Below the pieces are notes generated by a model, which searched no databases, had not been told where the DNA came from, and saw only the letters and a program-made list of their open reading frames with translations. 5,275 nt of DNA. Source: a virus (lineage: Duplodnaviria; Heunggongvirae; Uroviricota; Caudoviricetes). Below are positions 1 through 5,275 of this stretch, piece by piece. How positions within the stretch are numbered: the stretch's first letter is position 1; each line of letters starts with the position of its first letter. The stretch lies in IMG/VR virus record IMGVR_UViG_2534682227_000016. One strand, written 5' to 3'. Made by a program: the position numbers and the translations under genes.

Positions 1-2
1 CG

Positions 3-359
3 GCAAAACGGGATGTGGGGACAGGGGAAAATCAGATACCGGACATGGCCTCTTTTGCCAGTGGTAATGGATGGATGAAATTACCCAACGGGAAAATCCT
101 GCAATATGGTCGTGGTGCGGTTACGCCGACATTATCGACGCAAACAATGAGAATTACATTCAGCATCCCTTTCCCCAAAAAAGCGGACTGCGCCATGCTT
201 ACTCATTCTGGTGATGGCGGTGCGCCTTTAGGCGCTGGGCGAGGGTTCGTGATGACTGCAGAAGGCCCAACGTTAACCGGCTTTAATTCTGCTTACAGAA
301 CGTCATCAACCAGCGACACGGTATCGATGAATTACAGTTGGTGGGCTGTTGGTGAGTAA
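3..359 (+). CDS. Phage tail fibre protein, C-terminal variable (receptor-binding) segment; 5'-partial, reading frame open to the window edge
   Basis: The frame of ORF 15..359 has no stop back to position 3, so the gene enters from upstream. TAA stop at 357-359. A Tfa-type chaperone gene follows 20 nt downstream, the usual stf-tfa arrangement. Gly/Ser/Thr-rich composition is typical of fibre tips. Lies inside the Pin-invertible segment. Confidence 0.65.
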   Translation, partial: AKRDVGTGENQIPDMASFASGNGWMKLPNGKILQYGRGAVTPTLSTQTMRITFSIPFPKKADCAMLTHSGDGGAPLGAGRGFVMTAEGPTLTGFNSAYRTSSTSDTVSMNYSWWAVGE

Positions 360-379
360 TTTTATTCAGGGTGATTTAT

Positions 380-823
380 ATGGACGAATATGTTTATAGC
401 GCAAGGCATAATGCTTTTTTCCCTGTGGATATGATTGATAAATATAAATCAGAGGGATGGGATTTATCAGACGCTAAGGAAGTAAATCAAAATATTATCA
501 GTGAGTTTATGGCTGAACCGCCACAAGGAAAAATCCGTATTGCCGGAGATGATGGGCTGCCTGCGTGGGCAGATATTCCTCCACCCACGCATGAAGAGCT
601 TATTGAAATTACTGAATCAGAAAGACAGCTACTAATTAACCAGGCCAACGAATACATGAACAGTAAGCAATGGCCCGGTAAAGCGGCTATTGGTCGTCTG
701 AAAGGTGACGAACTGACGCAATATAATTTGTGGCTGGATTATCTGGACGCACTGGAGCTGGTCGATACTTCCGGTGCGCCAGATATTGAATGGCCTACGC
801 CTCCGGCAGTTCAGGCCAGATGA
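380..823 (+). CDS. Tail fibre assembly protein (Tfa chaperone family)
   Basis: ATG at 380 is preceded by AGGGTGA (366-374) with a 5-nt spacer; the ORF-track GTG at 371 is a less likely start. C-terminus ...DTSGAPDIEWPTPP matches the conserved Tfa C-terminal motif (DTS-x-APD-x-x-WP). Sits directly downstream of the tail-fibre cassette. Confidence 0.7.
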   Translation: MDEYVYSARHNAFFPVDMIDKYKSEGWDLSDAKEVNQNIISEFMAEPPQGKIRIAGDDGLPAWADIPPPTHEELIEITESERQLLINQANEYMNSKQWPGKAAIGRLKGDELTQYNLWLDYLDALELVDTSGAPDIEWPTPPAVQAR

Positions 824-1388
824 CATCCGGCGCGGTGCTGGTATCTGTTGCCGTCACCGCGTCAATGTAATCCAGCACGGCGTTAAGTCGGGTTGTTTCT
901 GCCTGAGTCAGTTTCCGTCCGGCCTGTAACTTCAGCTGAATCAGACTAATGGAAGCCATTGCTGCATCAATCAGTGATTGGCGCTGTGCTTCTGCCGCGT
1001 CTACTGCGGCACTGTGTTGTGCCTCAGTGTCTGTCACCCATTTCTCACCATCCCATTTATCGTATGGCGTTAACGGTGAAATCGTGACATAACCGTCTTT
1101 GATGGCACCGATATAATCCACTGTAACAGCTGCGCCATTTTCGATTGAGTAAACAGTCTCATTGCGATGGTCTTCTTCATGGCTCCATCCCTTACCTGTA
1201 AATACTGCCACTCTTCCCGGAATGTTTTCGCCAGGGTCAATACCAGTGGAACAGGCGGGCATACTTACGCCAGTATTAATATATTCATCAGACCAGCCCG
1301 TATACTCAGATGTTTCAGCATCATAATAAAAACAACGCATATCGCCCGGCACTGTAGCCAGCCCATTTTCATCAAAAACAGGTTTCAT
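795..1388 (-). CDS. Tail fibre assembly protein (Tfa family), partner of the opposed cassette
   Basis: 197 aa. ATG at 1388-1386 is preceded by GGTGAGGG with a 7-nt spacer. C-terminus ...DTSTAPDVIWPELPEA carries the same Tfa motif. Its start overlaps the stop of the upstream - strand fibre segment (TAATG, 1386-1390), suggesting translational coupling. 3' end overlaps the + strand tfa by 29 bp. Confidence 0.75.
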   Translation of the reverse strand: MKPVFDENGLATVPGDMRCFYYDAETSEYTGWSDEYINTGVSMPACSTGIDPGENIPGRVAVFTGKGWSHEEDHRNETVYSIENGAAVTVDYIGAIKDGYVTISPLTPYDKWDGEKWVTDTEAQHSAAVDAAEAQRQSLIDAAMASISLIQLKLQAGRKLTQAETTRLNAVLDYIDAVTATDTSTAPDVIWPELPEA

Positions 1389-1885
1389 TATTTAGCCCTC
1401 ACCAGAAAGTTAAATGCAATATTTCGCGGTCTGACTGCAACAAAATTCACACCATCACCCACAGAGTTACTGGTGAAATTAAATCGTGAAAATCCTGGCT
1501 GATTTCCGGCGATGCCATCATGAAAGTTAATTGCGTGTCCCGCACCTTCGCCTATATTCCCGGCAAACTGAGAAAAGTTTGTAGCTGCCTGCCAGCTTAA
1601 TAATTCGCGACCACCGTCTGCACCTCGCCCGTCATCCCAGATACGAATGAAATCACCGCGGGCTTCAGGTAATACCAGCGAAGGAAACACTTTCGCCAGC
1701 ACAGGATAATCAGTGGCAGAGAATTTCGCGCCGTTGAACTTCAAAAACACCATACAGGACCAGCTGTCGATTACAGTATTTGGCATTGCAGCGGACGGCC
1801 AGAAGAACGGAACGCCAATAGCTGGAGCACCTTCTCCCAAACCAACGTTTATGAAAATGCAGAAATAACGAGCAAATGGCATCAT
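1388..1885 (-). CDS. Alternative tail fibre C-terminal variable segment (silent, start-less cassette of the invertible segment)
   Basis: 165-aa ORF with Gly/Asn/Phe-rich fibre-tip composition, immediately followed by its own tfa. Its first ~18 codons span the crossover site at 1832-1857, so the real coding unit probably begins at the crossover and is only expressed after inversion fuses it to the constant 5' part upstream of the window. The M at 1885 is probably not a genuine start. Confidence 0.6.
   Translation of the reverse strand: MMPFARYFCIFINVGLGEGAPAIGVPFFWPSAAMPNTVIDSWSCMVFLKFNGAKFSATDYPVLAKVFPSLVLPEARGDFIRIWDDGRGADGGRELLSWQAATNFSQFAGNIGEGAGHAINFHDGIAGNQPGFSRFNFTSNSVGDGVNFVAVRPRNIAFNFLVRAK
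1832..1857. other. Site-specific inversion crossover site (pix/gix/hix type), right boundary of the invertible segment
   Basis: TTCTCCCAAACCAACGTTTATGAAAA is a 26-bp site with two imperfectly symmetric 12-bp halves around a central AA. It resembles the gix/hix sites as I recall them (TT-TCC-AAACC-..-GTTT-...-GAA). It lies ~55 bp upstream of pin, inside the 5' end of the - strand fibre cassette, as expected for a Gin/Pin system. Confidence 0.6.
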
Positions 1886-1911: not shown

Positions 1912-2466
1912 ATGCTTATTGGCTATGTACGTGTGTCAACAAATGACCAGAACACAGATCTACAACGTAATGCGCTGAACTGTGCAGGATGCGAGCTGAT
2001 TTTTGAAGACAAGATAAGCGGTACAAAGTCCGAAAGGCCGGGACTGAAAAAACTGCTCAGGACATTATCGGCAGGTGACACTCTGGTTGTCTGGAAACTG
2101 GATCGGCTGGGGCGCAGTATGCGGCATCTGGTCATTCTGGTTGAGGAGTTGCGCGAACGTGGCGTTAATTTTCGCAGCCTGACGGATGCTATTGATACCA
2201 GTACCCCAATGGGGCGCTTTTTCTTTCATGTGATGGGGGCCCTGGCTGAAATGGAACGAGAACTGATTGTTGAACGAACAAAAGCTGGACTGGAAGCTGC
2301 TCGCGCACAGGGACGAATTGGTGGACGTCGTCCCAAACTTACACCAGAACAATGGGCGCAGGCCGGACGATTAATTGCAGCAGGAATTCCTCGCCAGAAG
2401 GTAGCGATCATCTATGATGTTGGTGTATCGACACTGTATAAGAAGTTTCCGGCCGGAGATAAATGA
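1912..2466 (+). CDS. pin: Serine DNA invertase Pin (Hin/Gin/Cin/Pin family site-specific recombinase)
   Basis: 184 aa beginning MLIGYVRVSTNDQNTDLQRNAL..., with the catalytic Ser in RVSTNDQ and a C-terminal HTH (...GIPRQKVAIIYDVGVSTLYKKF). Near-identical to my recollection of e14 PinE. AGGGAG at 1899-1904 is 7 nt upstream of the ATG at 1912; the ORF-track start at 1876 is an in-frame upstream ATG without an SD. Confidence 0.95.
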   Translation: MLIGYVRVSTNDQNTDLQRNALNCAGCELIFEDKISGTKSERPGLKKLLRTLSAGDTLVVWKLDRLGRSMRHLVILVEELRERGVNFRSLTDAIDTSTPMGRFFFHVMGALAEMERELIVERTKAGLEAARAQGRIGGRRPKLTPEQWAQAGRLIAAGIPRQKVAIIYDVGVSTLYKKFPAGDK

Positions 2467-2523: not shown

Positions 2524-3393
<870 letters not shown>

Positions 3394-3476
3394 CTAACCC
3401 TTTGAATTTACATAGCGCAAAAAGATACCTTTCCTCATAATGTGAGCTAATTTTATGTTTCGTTTGATGATCGGGT

Positions 3477-3538
3477 CGGTCTCGAAAACCGGAGTAGGGG
3501 CAACTCTACCGGGGGTTCAAATCCCCCTCTCTCCGCCA
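3477..3538 (+). other. 3' fragment (~62 nt) of a tRNA-Ser(CGA) gene; attachment-site (attR-type) scar, not an intact tRNA
   Basis: CGGTCTCGAAAACCGG (anticodon stem-loop, U33-CGA-A37), GAGTAGGGGCAACTCTAC (long class-II variable arm), GGGGGTTCAAATCCCCC (T-arm), TCTCTCC-G-CCA (3' acceptor strand and CCA). The D-arm and 5' acceptor strand are absent; identity to the tRNA begins at 3477. Matches my recollection of E. coli serU. Confidence 0.8.
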
Positions 3539-4120
3539 CTTTATCAATGACTTATCTCCCGACTTCCCGTCTTGCTTTTCCTAAACAGAACAATCGTAGA
3601 ATATTCTTGAAGGGTTAGATCGTCACTGTTTTCTGTTCGATACTGTGACATTCAGCACTTGATTCGCTATGGATCTGACAGGAAGGTTTTGAGCGAAAAT
3701 CTGCAGTTATTCAGTCGTTTTCTTATCGGTCACCATTATTCTTTTAGACATTGATCCTACAAAGCTGCCGCAAAGTTGGTGGTGGGAACTGAAGTTGCGT
3801 AGAGAAGGGGTCAATACCCGGAGGCAAACATGGGCTGGCAAAAGTGTAGCGGTATTAGGCGCAGCTATTTAGCCTAGTTATGTTTTATGAAAACTTGATA
3901 TCATATAAGTGTCTTACTTATTGGCTGTAAATAAGTTTTTCCTAAGGAATTGTTTCTTGAGTATCATTTGTAACTGTAACGGAATTTATAATCCTTTGCT
4001 TTATTGTTACGGTATTTTTTATCACACCCTATTTTTAGTGGTTTTTTATACTGAAGTTTGGCAAAGTGAACTTTATATACATATACTTCATCCTGGTTTC
4101 AGTTAAATTGGGGGGATGAT

Positions 4121-4864
4121 ATGGCAACTACATGTTCAGTTATATTGATTTTGGAGTCCTTTGATGTTTATTTCGGAAAAGAGAGTGTGTTTCTGGAGAG
4201 AGGTTCATCTGTACTTGTCGACTCTAGCTCTAGAGATTTTTTCCTGACATATCCTGAAAGAGTGATAGTGGCGGATTTTGGCGCTGAGTTTATTAGTCGC
4301 TATTTGAAAGCTAATAACTTAAGGGATATTTCTGATTGTAGGGAATATCCATCTTATTTAAAAATAAACTTTGCTGACTTCAGTTTAATTAAAGGATTAA
4401 TTAGTTGGGCTAATCACTGTGCTGAATACATAGAAATTTTTGATGAGTCTATTGCTTTTACATGTCTCTCTGCATTTTCTTCTGAAAAACAATTTGGAGT
4501 ATTTCTGTTTGGATGTTTGAAAAGCACAGGGGCTAAAGTTAAAACGATTATTCATACGGATTTATCTGCACCATGGCGTCTTAAGGATATATCATCAAGA
4601 TTATATCTCAGCGAAAGTTTACTAAAGAGGAAATTGAAAGAAGAGGGGGTATCATTCAGTAAGATCATACTTGATGAGAGGATGCAAATGGCTGAATATT
4701 TACTCAGCACTCGTTGTTATCCTATTAGTAAAGTAGCTAAGGTCTGTGGTTATGCCAGTGTCTCATACTTTACTTATGTATTTAGACGTTATTTTGGTGT
4801 TTCTCCAAGTCAATACTCTCAGAGGAGTTCAGAAAGTAAAATTCTTACTCACCAGGGAATCTGA
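4121..4864 (+). CDS. AraC/XylS-family transcriptional regulator (AppY/YdeO/EnvY-like)
   Basis: 247 aa. The C-terminal AraC-type double HTH (...WRLKDISSRLYLSESLLKRKLKEEGVSFSKIILDERMQMAEYLL...KVAKVCGYASVSYFTYVFRRYFGVSPSQY) closely parallels the YdeO/AppY pattern W.LKDI...Y.SESLLKK.LK.E...F..I.LD.RM..A..L...CGY.S.SYF...F...YG.(S/T)P. G-run SD at 4110-4115 is 5 nt before the ATG. Gene and upstream region are visibly AT-rich. Confidence 0.85.
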   Translation: MATTCSVILILESFDVYFGKESVFLERGSSVLVDSSSRDFFLTYPERVIVADFGAEFISRYLKANNLRDISDCREYPSYLKINFADFSLIKGLISWANHCAEYIEIFDESIAFTCLSAFSSEKQFGVFLFGCLKSTGAKVKTIIHTDLSAPWRLKDISSRLYLSESLLKRKLKEEGVSFSKIILDERMQMAEYLLSTRCYPISKVAKVCGYASVSYFTYVFRRYFGVSPSQYSQRSSESKILTHQGI

Positions 4865-4867
4865 TCA

Positions 4868-5275
4868 TTGTTCTTGCCCCCTTATTTCCAGACAGGGGGG
4901 GTATCTTAAGTTAACGTTACCCGCTGACGTCGATATTCTCGCGGAGAGCGATAACCCAACGCACTGTGCGGATGGTTTTCATTGTAATGTTCGATCGCCA
5001 CTGCAAGATTATGCAATGCCGTTCTTACATTCGGTTTCGGCATGAACGCGATGTAGTCTTCCTTCATCGTTTTCACGAACCTTTCTGCAATTCCATTACT
5101 CTGAGGACTGCTGATTGCCGTTGTGCAGGGCTCCAGATTCAACTCTCTGGCGAACTGCCGTGTTTCATGCGCTCTATACGCTGAACCGTTATCTGAACCG
5201 CCCCGGGTTTCCTGGAGAGTGTTTTATCTGTGAACTCAGGCTGCCAGATCATCGTTTCCGATGGAAGCATAATAA
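4868..5275 (-). mobile_element. IS3-family (IS2-like) insertion sequence, terminal ~400 bp; continues past the window end
   Basis: Terminal sequence TTGCCCCCTTATTTCCAGACA...TATCTTAAG... resembles the IS2 end as I recall it (TGGATTTGCCCCTATATTTCCAGACA...). The - strand encodes an IS2 OrfB-like C-terminus with the DDE-region motif SDNGS and ...[14 protein letters not shown].... The element boundary is approximate (4866-4870). Confidence 0.75.
4906..5223 (-). pseudogene. IS2-like transposase OrfB, C-terminal region; reading frame interrupted upstream
   Basis: The frame reading ...[50 protein letters not shown]...[22 protein letters not shown] is open from 5223 to the stop at 4906-4908 but hits an in-frame TAA at 5224-5226. 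The upstream transposase-like reading (...[16 protein letters not shown]...) is in the -1 frame, implying a 1-nt indel near the CCCCGGG run at 5201-5207. Cannot tell a real pseudogene from a sequencing or assembly error. Confidence 0.5.

What the first reader, a model, noticed from the sequence alone, without database searches (positions are those of the whole stretch)
1..1857. Pin-invertible tail-fibre host-range switch: two opposed fibre-tip cassettes, each with its own Tfa chaperone
The layout stf-C(+) - tfa(+) - tfa'(-) - stf'-C(-) - crossover site - pin is the classic Mu G / P1 C / e14 P segment architecture. The + strand cassette continues upstream in frame, so it is the one currently fused to the constant 5' part and expressed. 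The - strand cassette has no credible start of its own and would be expressed only after inversion. The two tips differ strongly in sequence, implying two receptor specificities. The left crossover site is not in the window; I looked for a reverse-complement-like copy in positions 1-360 and found none.
Basis: partly seen in the sequence, partly recalled or inferred. Interest (0 to 1): 0.5.

Follow-up and report, generated by a model that had tools for sequence, protein, structure and literature searches.

The report
Pin-invertible tail-fibre segment, O157 Sp1
This is the well-known Pin (Gin/Hin-family) invertible tail-fibre segment, here in the decayed Sp1/CP-933H prophage of E. coli O157:H7. 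It still flips between sequenced strains, but it is a textbook kind of switch and not a new one.

Summary
Window 1-1857 holds a gp53-like fibre tip (+), tfa (+), tfa' (-), a collar-type fibre tip (-), a 26-bp crossover site (1832-1857) and pin (1912-2466).

The window is 100% identical to the E. coli O157:H7 thrW prophage remnant Sp1/CP-933H. The missing left crossover site lies immediately upstream: its 15-nt shared repeat ends on the base before window position 1. It sits inside a complete 236-aa fibre gene whose first ~117 residues are the constant part.

Inverting the segment in silico at the TT/AA cores reproduces the Sakai reference exactly (0 mismatches in 10,190 nt) and gives an in-frame 264-aa alternative fibre. 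Both orientations are common among complete genomes: 92 vs 124, 144 vs 170 and 87 vs 156 with three probe pairs. Near-isogenic cattle strains 110 and 107 also differ in orientation.

Pin is 96.7% identical to e14 PinE and 80% to Mu Gin, and the right site is identical to e14's.

Two corrections:
- The minus cassette does have an ATG-led ORF (MMPFARYFCIFINVGLGE...), as e14 stfE does.
- Sp1 has lost every other virion gene, so as a host-range switch it is vestigial here.

This is already known biology and of low interest.

The parts
1..1831 (.). Unique interior of the invertible segment. The segment is 1,858 bp core to core, and its left 26-bp site lies just outside the window at L001 19974-19999.
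   Evidence: All 1,320 mismatches between this strain and Sakai fall in L001 20001-21830. After in-silico inversion there are 0 mismatches over 10,190 nt.
3..359 (+). Variable tip 1: the C-terminal 118 codons of the 236-aa fibre gene (a gp53-like C-terminal domain), currently fused to the constant N-terminal part upstream of the window.
   Evidence: Pfam Gp53-like_C 6.7e-13. Full ORF L001 19649-20359. PHROG 1396/11303 tail fibre.
380..823 (+). tfa1, the tail-fibre assembly chaperone for tip 1 (147 aa).
   Evidence: Pfam Caudo_TAP 2.7e-30. 54% identity to e14 TfaP.
795..1388 (-). tfa2, the tail-fibre assembly chaperone for tip 2 (197 aa). It converges on tfa1 and overlaps it by 29 nt.
   Evidence: Pfam Caudo_TAP 2.3e-27. 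65.5% identity to e14 TfaE.
1388..1831 (-). Variable tip 2 (collar-type fibre tip). It is silent as a fibre in this orientation and is joined to the constant part after inversion.
   Evidence: PHROG 3100 5e-53 and 523 'tail collar fiber' 1e-41. 41.7% identity to e14 StfE. An in-frame 264-aa fusion forms after inversion and is annotated in Sakai.
1832..1857 (.). Right crossover site TTCTCCCAAACC AA CGTTTATGAAAA: two 12-bp half-sites around the core AA at 1844-1845.
   Evidence: Identical to the e14 and phage pro483 right sites. Same architecture as Mu gixR, TTCCTGTAAACC GA GGTTTTGGATAA.
1858..1885 (-). ATG-led leader (MMPFARYFC...) of the pin-proximal ORF 1388-1885. It lies outside the segment, so it is fused to whichever tip faces pin.
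   Evidence: ORF; leader comparison with e14. Equivalent ATG-led open frames in pro483 and Mu were read by hand from the sequences returned. Native translation has not been shown.
1912..2466 (+). pin, a serine DNA invertase of 184 aa.
   Evidence: Resolvase + HTH_7. 96.7% identity to e14 PinE, 88% to the pro483 invertase, 80% to Mu Gin. PDB 3UJ3/4M6F Gin, E~1e-93.
1933..1996 (.). Presumed recombinational enhancer (Fis sites) inside the 5' end of pin. This is inferred, not shown.
   Evidence: The first 130 nt of pin are 97.7% identical to e14 pinE and 76.9% to Mu gin. A degenerate Fis motif at +71..+85 is conserved in all four invertase genes. That the enhancer lies in the 5' coding region of gin, hin and cin comes from established literature, recalled from my own knowledge.

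Best explanation
Window 1-1857 plus pin is a Din-family (Gin/Hin/Cin/Pin) site-specific inversion system. It is a close relative of the e14 P segment and sits in the Sp1/CP-933H prophage remnant next to thrW in E. coli O157:H7.

Mechanism. Pin, a serine recombinase, synapses two inverted 26-bp sites. One lies inside the fibre gene just upstream of the window. The other is at 1832-1857. Pin cuts at the identical 2-bp cores (TT/AA) and inverts the 1,858-bp segment. This swaps which C-terminal receptor-binding tip follows the constant ~117-aa N-terminal part of the fibre. It also swaps which cognate Tfa chaperone follows on the same strand. The gp53-like tip gives a 236-aa fibre (this window). 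The collar-type tip gives a 264-aa fibre (Sakai, EDL933).

Shown:
- the sites;
- frame continuity in both states;
- the identity of the recombinase;
- both states occurring in otherwise identical genomes, so inversion is recent and probably ongoing.

Inferred:
- dependence on Fis and an enhancer;
- transcription, possibly by read-through from the early promoter, since cro-cII-O-P' now runs straight into the fibre gene.

Because all other virion genes are deleted, the switch no longer changes the host range of Sp1. It is an active relic of a phage host-range switch.
For: - Source and context.
- Domains.
- Left site and inverted repeat.
- In-silico inversion equals Sakai with 0 mismatches in 10,190 nt, and all differences are confined to the segment interior.
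- Sakai annotation shows the flipped gene order and a 264-aa fibre.
- Orientation counts among 5,426 complete genomes: 87 vs 156 with the 600-nt junction probes; 92 vs 124 with the Sp1-specific 3,129-nt probes; 144 vs 170 with the window-size probes.
- Strains 110 and 107 (5,442,850 vs 5,442,851 bp) carry the same IS1203 inside tfa2 but have opposite orientations.
- The JEONG-1266 assembly has ~22 single-base deletions, all between the two sites and none in the flanks, as expected if reads of both orientations were mixed in the consensus.
- Pin identities and the Gin structures.
- e14 has the same gene order and the same sites.
- The P2-like phage pro483 carries the same module at 92.8% DNA identity.
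- e14 inversion has been shown experimentally: PMC4272514 and PMC12529663.
Against: - No experimental or read-level data for this strain. Ongoing inversion is inferred from differences between assemblies.
- Absolute genome counts differ between probe designs (87/92/144 and 156/124/170). I could not explain this, although the ratio is stable.
- Promoter and terminator scans were at background, so expression is unsupported.
- The enhancer is inferred only from homology.
- IS1203 disrupts tfa2 in some strains and O is frameshifted in several. This indicates decay rather than maintained function.
Confidence: 0.9

Rival explanations
1. Domesticated anti-phage switch. As reported for K-12 e14 (PinQ/PinE inversion creates StfE2, which blocks T2 adsorption), the host may use the inversion to control the pin-proximal ORF. 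That ORF is the leader MMPFARYFCIFINVGLGE fused to whichever tip faces pin. In the Sakai orientation this gives a 136-aa leader + gp53-like protein (ECs_0283 / WP_001115553.1), the formal analogue of StfE2. In the window orientation it gives leader + collar tip, the StfE analogue.
For: - The leader ORF and its ATG are conserved with e14. Equivalent ATG-led open frames in pro483 and Mu were read by hand.
- The flipped-state protein is annotated.
- The e14 precedent is PMC12529663.
- The segment is kept and still flips in a prophage that has lost all other structural genes.
- The adjacent gene is the anti-phage type IV restriction enzyme PD-T4-3/CMoRE.
Against: - The gp53-like tip is only ~35% identical to the K-12 one, so the T2-blocking activity cannot be transferred.
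- The Shine-Dalgarno context of the leader is poor.
- No PADLOC model matches the fibre ORFs.
- IS1203 interrupts tfa2 in some strains.
- The conserved ATGGCAT could instead reflect pin promoter or leader constraints on the other strand.
- The e14 claim itself rests largely on plasmid-expressed proteins and docking.
Confidence: 0.15
2. Frozen relic: the segment inverted in the past, but Pin or the sites are now inactive, and the two orientations simply mark two old O157 clades.
For: No read-level heterogeneity data were available. Sequence divergence in the lineage is too low to judge selection.
Against: - pin is intact and 96.7% identical to the active e14 PinE.
- The sites match e14's: the right site is identical and the left has 24 of 26 positions.
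- Strains 110 and 107 are near-isogenic, share a derived IS1203 insertion inside the segment, and still differ in orientation.
- The JEONG-1266 consensus errors are confined to the segment.
Confidence: 0.05
3. The opposite orientations are assembly artefacts at an inverted repeat.
For: Short inverted repeats can mislead assemblers. One assembly (JEONG-1266) is visibly error-prone in this segment.
Against: - The repeat is only 15-26 bp, far shorter than any read.
- Hundreds of independent complete genomes show each state with 100% identical junctions.
- The break points fall exactly at a canonical recombinase core.
Confidence: 0.01

Closest known systems
e14 P segment / PinE of E. coli K-12 (Plasterk & van de Putte 1985; PMC4272514; PMC12529663)
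   Same: - Identical gene order: stf(const+tip)-tfa-tfa'(-)-stf'(-)-site-pin.
- Pin is 96.7% identical.
- The right site is identical and the left site matches at 24 of 26 positions.
- The junction peptide N(L/V)GLGE is conserved.
- The pin-proximal leader ORF is conserved.
- Both lie in a defective lambdoid prophage and both flip.
- In both, a type IV restriction gene follows pin: mcrA in e14, CMoRE here.
   Different: - Different prophage and locus: Sp1 next to thrW, not e14 at icd.
- The N-terminal part of the constant region is different.
- The tips are only 35-42% identical and the Tfa proteins 54-66%.
- The segment is 1,858 bp against 1,827 bp by the same core-to-core measure.
- Sp1 has lost even the baseplate genes that e14 partly keeps.
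Mu G segment / Gin
   Same: - 80% identical invertase.
- 26-bp sites of the same architecture.
- Sc + Sv/U versus Sv'/U' logic.
- The invertase gene lies immediately right of the segment.
   Different: - Mu is a viable phage, and there the switch really changes host range.
- The G segment is ~3 kb with much larger variable parts.
- The core dinucleotide differs (TC/GA against TT/AA).
Invertible fibre module of P2-like Escherichia phage pro483 (NC_028943)
   Same: 92.8% DNA identity from the left site through the invertase. It has the same gp53-like tip, two tfa genes, a collar tip and an identical right site.
   Different: In pro483 the constant part is a P2 H-type fibre of 399 aa in a complete phage genome. 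The left outer half-site also differs (TTCTCGCATACC).

Membership tests
Din family (Gin/Hin/Cin/Pin) DNA-inversion systems | Small serine recombinase (~185-195 aa) with an N-terminal resolvase catalytic domain and a C-terminal HTH. | tested here: met
   Pfam Resolvase 8.3e-52 + HTH_7 1.1e-15. 80% identity to Gin over 181 aa, with the first 22 residues, including the YVRVSTNDQ serine motif, identical. PDB Gin 3UJ3/4M6F.
Din family (Gin/Hin/Cin/Pin) DNA-inversion systems | Two 26-bp crossover sites in inverted orientation, each with two 12-bp half-sites around a 2-bp core, and with matching cores. | tested here: met
   CTCTTCAAAACC TT GGTTTGGGAGAA (L001 19974-19999) and TTCTCCCAAACC AA CGTTTATGAAAA (window 1832-1857). 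Compared with gixL and gixR.
Din family (Gin/Hin/Cin/Pin) DNA-inversion systems | Inversion of the intervening DNA actually occurs, with break points at the cores. | tested here: met
   Comparative evidence only. In-silico inversion at the cores equals Sakai with 0 mismatches in 10,190 nt. Both states are found in many genomes and in near-isogenic strains.
Din family (Gin/Hin/Cin/Pin) DNA-inversion systems | A cis-acting, Fis-bound recombinational enhancer, located in the 5' part of the invertase gene. | tested here: inconclusive
   The 5' 130 nt are 97.7% identical to e14 pinE and 76.9% to gin. One degenerate Fis motif (+71..+85) is conserved in four genes. The expected second site at +22..+36 does not fit the degenerate motif at up to 2 mismatches. 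Coding constraint confounds the conservation.
Din family (Gin/Hin/Cin/Pin) DNA-inversion systems | Requirement for Fis and negative supercoiling. | not testable with these tools
   This is a biochemical property.
Mu G / P1 C / e14 P-type tail-fibre host-range switch | A constant N-terminal fibre part outside the segment, and two alternative C-terminal tips in opposite orientation inside it, both in frame across the site. | tested here: met
   236-aa and 264-aa products share residues 1-117. The tips are unrelated in sequence.
Mu G / P1 C / e14 P-type tail-fibre host-range switch | Each tip is followed by its own tail-fibre assembly chaperone. | tested here: met
   Two Caudo_TAP genes, one per strand.
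Mu G / P1 C / e14 P-type tail-fibre host-range switch | The fibre is part of a virion whose host range changes with orientation. | tested here: not met
   Sp1 retains int', cI, cro, cII, O and a P'::DUF2612' fusion, followed directly by the fibre gene. There are no head, tail or baseplate genes. The intact arrangement is seen in strain A41. The switch works like this family but is a relic in a non-functional phage.
Recombinase-activated phage inhibition (PinQ/PinE-StfE2; PMC12529663) | A pin-proximal ATG-led leader outside the segment that becomes fused to the gp53-like tip in one orientation. | tested here: met
   Leader MMPFARYFCIFINVGLGE against e14 MPFACYFFIFINVGLGE. The flipped-state 136-aa gp53-like protein is annotated in Sakai and in strain 107.
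Recombinase-activated phage inhibition (PinQ/PinE-StfE2; PMC12529663) | The chimeric protein blocks adsorption of lytic phages. | not testable with these tools
   The tip is only ~35% identical to the K-12 tip, so the activity cannot be inferred.

The most novel reading that the evidence does not exclude
In O157:H7 the Sp1 segment may be retained because the host uses it, not the phage. Pin flipping would then be a bet-hedging switch. It would set which tip is fused to the pin-proximal leader (and to the orphan constant part), producing a surface- or receptor-masking protein that blocks adsorption of particular lytic phages. It would work alongside the adjacent type IV restriction enzyme CMoRE as a small defence locus. 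This would extend the single K-12 e14 report to a different tip pair in a pathogen lineage.
Probability: 0.12. Interest if true: 0.5.

Novelty: already known. Interest (0 to 1): 0.15.

Why it matters
The practical value is mostly for annotation and assembly.

- The two orientations give different protein sets. Window orientation: a 236-aa fibre plus a 'truncated' phage tail protein. Flipped: a 264-aa fibre plus a 136-aa gp53-like protein. These should not be read as strain-specific gene content or pseudogenes.
- Mixed orientation in a culture can degrade long-read consensus, as in JEONG-1266.
- Biologically, it is one more case of an invertase system that keeps flipping long after its phage has died.
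- It sits beside a characterised anti-phage nuclease. That makes O157 a convenient second system for testing the recent claim that Pin-driven inversion in cryptic prophages serves host defence.

Tried and rejected
- ARAGORN found no tRNA in the window.
- Rfam gave only two sub-threshold hits. One is the antisense of the tRNA-Ser fragment. The other is a CssrB hit at 32.7 bits against a 76-bit cut-off, taken as chance.
- The sigma-70 promoter and intrinsic-terminator scan of L001 19300-22600 was at shuffle background, 5 vs 4.8 and 4 vs 3.7. It says nothing about expression.
- Literature searches for a specific description of Sp1/CP-933H inversion found nothing.
- I tried to explain why orientation counts differ between probe designs. 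I inspected the left flanks of three further genomes and all were normal. The discrepancy remains unexplained.
- A 636-nt left-flank probe was not Sp1-specific, because nt 65-636 also match intact prophages.
- Some fetched loci (L003, L006-L008, L011, L012) never appeared in the Python sandbox. The strain 110/107 comparison therefore rests on annotation tables and strands, not on a base-by-base alignment.
- The idea that the + ORF is an independent gene with no shared constant part is rejected.
- The assembly-artefact explanation is rejected.
Full report
**Source and context.** The 5,275-nt window is 100% identical to E. coli O157:H7 chromosomes, for example ATCC 43890, NZ_CP045863.1 76964-82238. 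The annotated neighbourhood (locus L001; window position 1 = L001 20001) runs as follows:
- thrW, a truncated integrase, cI, cro, cII, O (frameshifted in this strain) and a P fragment;
- a 236-aa 'gp53-like domain-containing protein';
- two tail-fibre assembly genes on opposite strands, then a 'phage tail protein, missing N-terminus' on the minus strand;
- pinE, a GIY-YIG gene, an AraC-family gene and IS fragments;
- a P4-like element.

In the Sakai reference this region is annotated as prophage Sp1.

**Checking the observation.**
- Window 3-359 is the end of a + strand ORF with a Pfam Gp53-like_C domain.
- 380-823 (+) and 795-1388 (-) are Caudo_TAP tail-fibre assembly proteins.
- 1912-2466 is Resolvase + HTH_7.
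- The minus-strand tip (1388-1849) has no Pfam hit but has strong PHROG tail-fibre and tail-collar matches.
- The two tips show no similarity to each other.

**The left site.** Reading upstream in the source genome gives CTCTTCAAAACC TT GGTTTGGGAGAA at L001 19974-19999. An inverted-repeat search finds it as the top pair: 20 nt, 95% complementary, 1,830 nt apart. The perfect shared 15-mer TTGGTTTGGGAGAAG occurs only twice in the 45-kb locus, in inverted orientation, against 0.13 expected. Its left copy ends at L001 20000, the base before the window begins. So the window starts exactly at the inner edge of the left repeat.

The site lies inside a complete 236-aa fibre ORF (L001 19649-20359). Residues 1-117 of that ORF are upstream of the crossover point and are the constant part.

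**Does it invert?** I inverted L001 in silico between the two core dinucleotides.
- The fibre ORF stays open and becomes 264 aa...TALQNLGLGE|GAPAIGVPFFWPS....
- The inverted sequence is identical to Sakai Sp1 over 10,190 nt, with 0 mismatches. Without inversion there are 1,320 mismatches, all within L001 20001-21830.
- Sakai annotates the flipped gene order: a 264-aa fibre ECs_0280, tfaE (+), yfdK (-), yfdL (-), pinE.

Orientation-specific probes against 5,426 complete E. coli genomes gave these counts of genomes with at least 80% coverage in one place:

| Probe | Window orientation | Flipped orientation |
|---|---|---|
| 600-nt left junction | 87 | 156 |
| 3,129-nt Sp1-specific, P' to pin | 92 | 124 |
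| Whole window | 144 | 170 |

The absolute numbers differ between designs for reasons I could not establish. Three further genomes I inspected had normal left flanks. The ratio is always roughly 35-46% to 54-65%.

Two further observations argue for recent or ongoing flipping.
- Cattle strains 110 and 107 have genome sizes of 5,442,850 and 5,442,851 bp and adjacent accessions. Both carry the same IS1203 insertion inside tfa2, which is inside the segment. They nevertheless have opposite orientation relative to pin and the flanks. The inversion therefore happened after the IS insertion, on a 3.17-kb segment.
- The JEONG-1266 assembly differs from ATCC 43890 by ~22 single-base deletions. All lie between the two sites and none in the flanks. 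That is what a long-read consensus built from reads of both orientations would look like. This reading is an inference.

**What family it belongs to.**
- Pin is 96.7% identical to K-12 e14 PinE, 88% to the invertase of P2-like phage pro483 and 80% to Mu Gin, whose structure is solved (3UJ3, 4M6F). The N-terminal serine motif is identical to Gin's.
- K-12 e14 has the same gene order ycfK(stfP)-tfaP-tfaE(-)-stfE(-)-pinE. Its right site is identical, and its left site differs at 2 of 26 positions.
- The sites have the gix architecture.
- The tips and chaperones are much less conserved: 35-42% and 54-66% identity to e14's. This is a separate member with its own tip pair, not a copy of e14.
- The whole module, from left site to invertase, is 92.8% identical at DNA level to that of phage pro483. 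There it is attached to a P2 H-type fibre in a complete genome. Parts of it also occur in lambdoid mEp043/mEp213 side tail fibres.
- The recombinational enhancer could only be inferred. The first 130 nt of pin are 97.7% identical to e14 pinE, and one degenerate Fis motif is conserved in four invertase genes.

**State of the prophage.** A 636-nt probe of the left flank shows that nt 1-64 are the start of a lambda-type P gene. Nt 65-636 match the end of a DUF2612 baseplate gene plus the fibre constant region in other strains. In strain A41 that region is part of a full contractile-tail gene set: sheath-like DUF3383, baseplate J, DUF2612, fibre. Sp1 has therefore lost everything from P codon ~21 to the last ~80 codons of DUF2612, while the fibre gene itself is complete.

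The switch is intact and active, but there is no virion whose host range it could change. Because cro-cII-O-P' now runs directly into the fibre gene on the same strand, transcription from the early promoter is conceivable. This is an inference, and the pattern scans were uninformative.

**Correction about the minus cassette.** It is part of an ATG-initiated 165-aa ORF (1388-1885). Its first 9-10 codons lie outside the segment, in the 54-nt spacer before pin. The leader MMPFARYFCIFINVGLGE matches e14 stfE (MPFACYFFIFINVGLGE). Equivalent ATG-led open frames can be read by hand in pro483 and Mu from the sequences.

Kirigo et al. 2025 (PMC12529663) report that e14 inversion fuses this leader to the gp53-like tip. 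They call the product StfE2 and report that it blocks T2 adsorption. The formal O157 analogue is the 136-aa protein annotated in the flipped state.

I hold this defence reading as a minority rival, for these reasons:
- the tip is only ~35% identical to K-12's;
- the Shine-Dalgarno context is poor;
- the segment shows signs of decay;
- the conserved ATGGCAT could reflect constraints of the pin leader on the other strand.

**Verdict.** The finding is real and correctly interpreted, and it belongs to a long-known kind: Mu G, P1 C and e14 P, with Sp1 pinE already annotated. Goldberg et al. 2014 (PMC4272514) showed phase variation of the e14 homologue by sequencing. I found no paper that describes the Sp1 orientation polymorphism specifically, but it is an expected property.

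Noticed in passing
window 2524-3297 (-): The gene immediately downstream of pin is a full-length match to the PADLOC model PD-T4-3 (E=2e-140) and to PDB 9U75 (E=8e-175). 9U75 is E. coli O157:H7 CMoRE, a GIY-YIG type IV restriction endonuclease that cuts hmC/ghmC DNA (PMC12923530). e14 carries mcrA, another type IV enzyme, in the same slot after pinE, and Mu carries com/mom there. The position after the invertase looks like a defence/counter-defence cargo slot.
   Followed up: partly
window ~3468-3560 (+): This is the 3' part of a tRNA-Ser gene plus ~20 nt of its downstream flank. It matches annotated tRNA-Ser genes in nearly all E. coli genomes at 96.8-100%, but ARAGORN calls no tRNA here. It is probably an att-site remnant marking a junction between two mobile elements inside what is annotated as Sp1. 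From memory the sequence looks like serU; this was not verified.
   Followed up: partly
window 3601-4864: A low-GC block (33-39% GC, against 42-52% elsewhere) holds an AraC-family regulator (4121-4864). Its best NCBIfam similarity is to YdeO/GadX/HilD, far below their cut-offs. It matches PHROG 1450 at 1e-95. Its function and target are unknown.
   Followed up: no
window 4906-5275 (-): An IS3-family transposase fragment (rve_3). A complete IS1203 and further IS debris follow just beyond the window. The right end of the window differs between strains through IS1203 insertions.
   Followed up: no
L003 (JEONG-1266) 3005-4806, equivalent to window 5-1805: About 22 single-base deletions relative to ATCC 43890, all between the two crossover sites and none in 400 nt of either flank. 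They produce four 'frameshifted' annotations. This is probably a consensus artefact from reads of both orientations.
   Followed up: partly
L011 2458-4365 (strain 110) and L012 2431-4338 (strain 107), equivalent to window tfa2: IS1203 is inserted inside tfa2, and so inside the invertible segment. The two near-isogenic strains still differ in orientation, so a 3.17-kb segment with an IS inside still inverts.
   Followed up: yes
L001 19338-19649 (just upstream of the window): The deletion junction of Sp1. The first ~21 codons of a lambda-type P gene are fused in frame to the C-terminal ~80 codons of a DUF2612 baseplate protein, giving a 103-aa chimeric ORF that ends where the fibre gene starts. 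The O gene upstream is intact in some strains and frameshifted in others.
   Followed up: partly
E. coli genome searches (vs 13, 37, 65): The number of genomes scored as window-orientation or flipped depends on the probe (87/92/144 and 156/124/170). I could not explain the differences. There may be additional arrangements of the left flank in some strains.
   Followed up: partly
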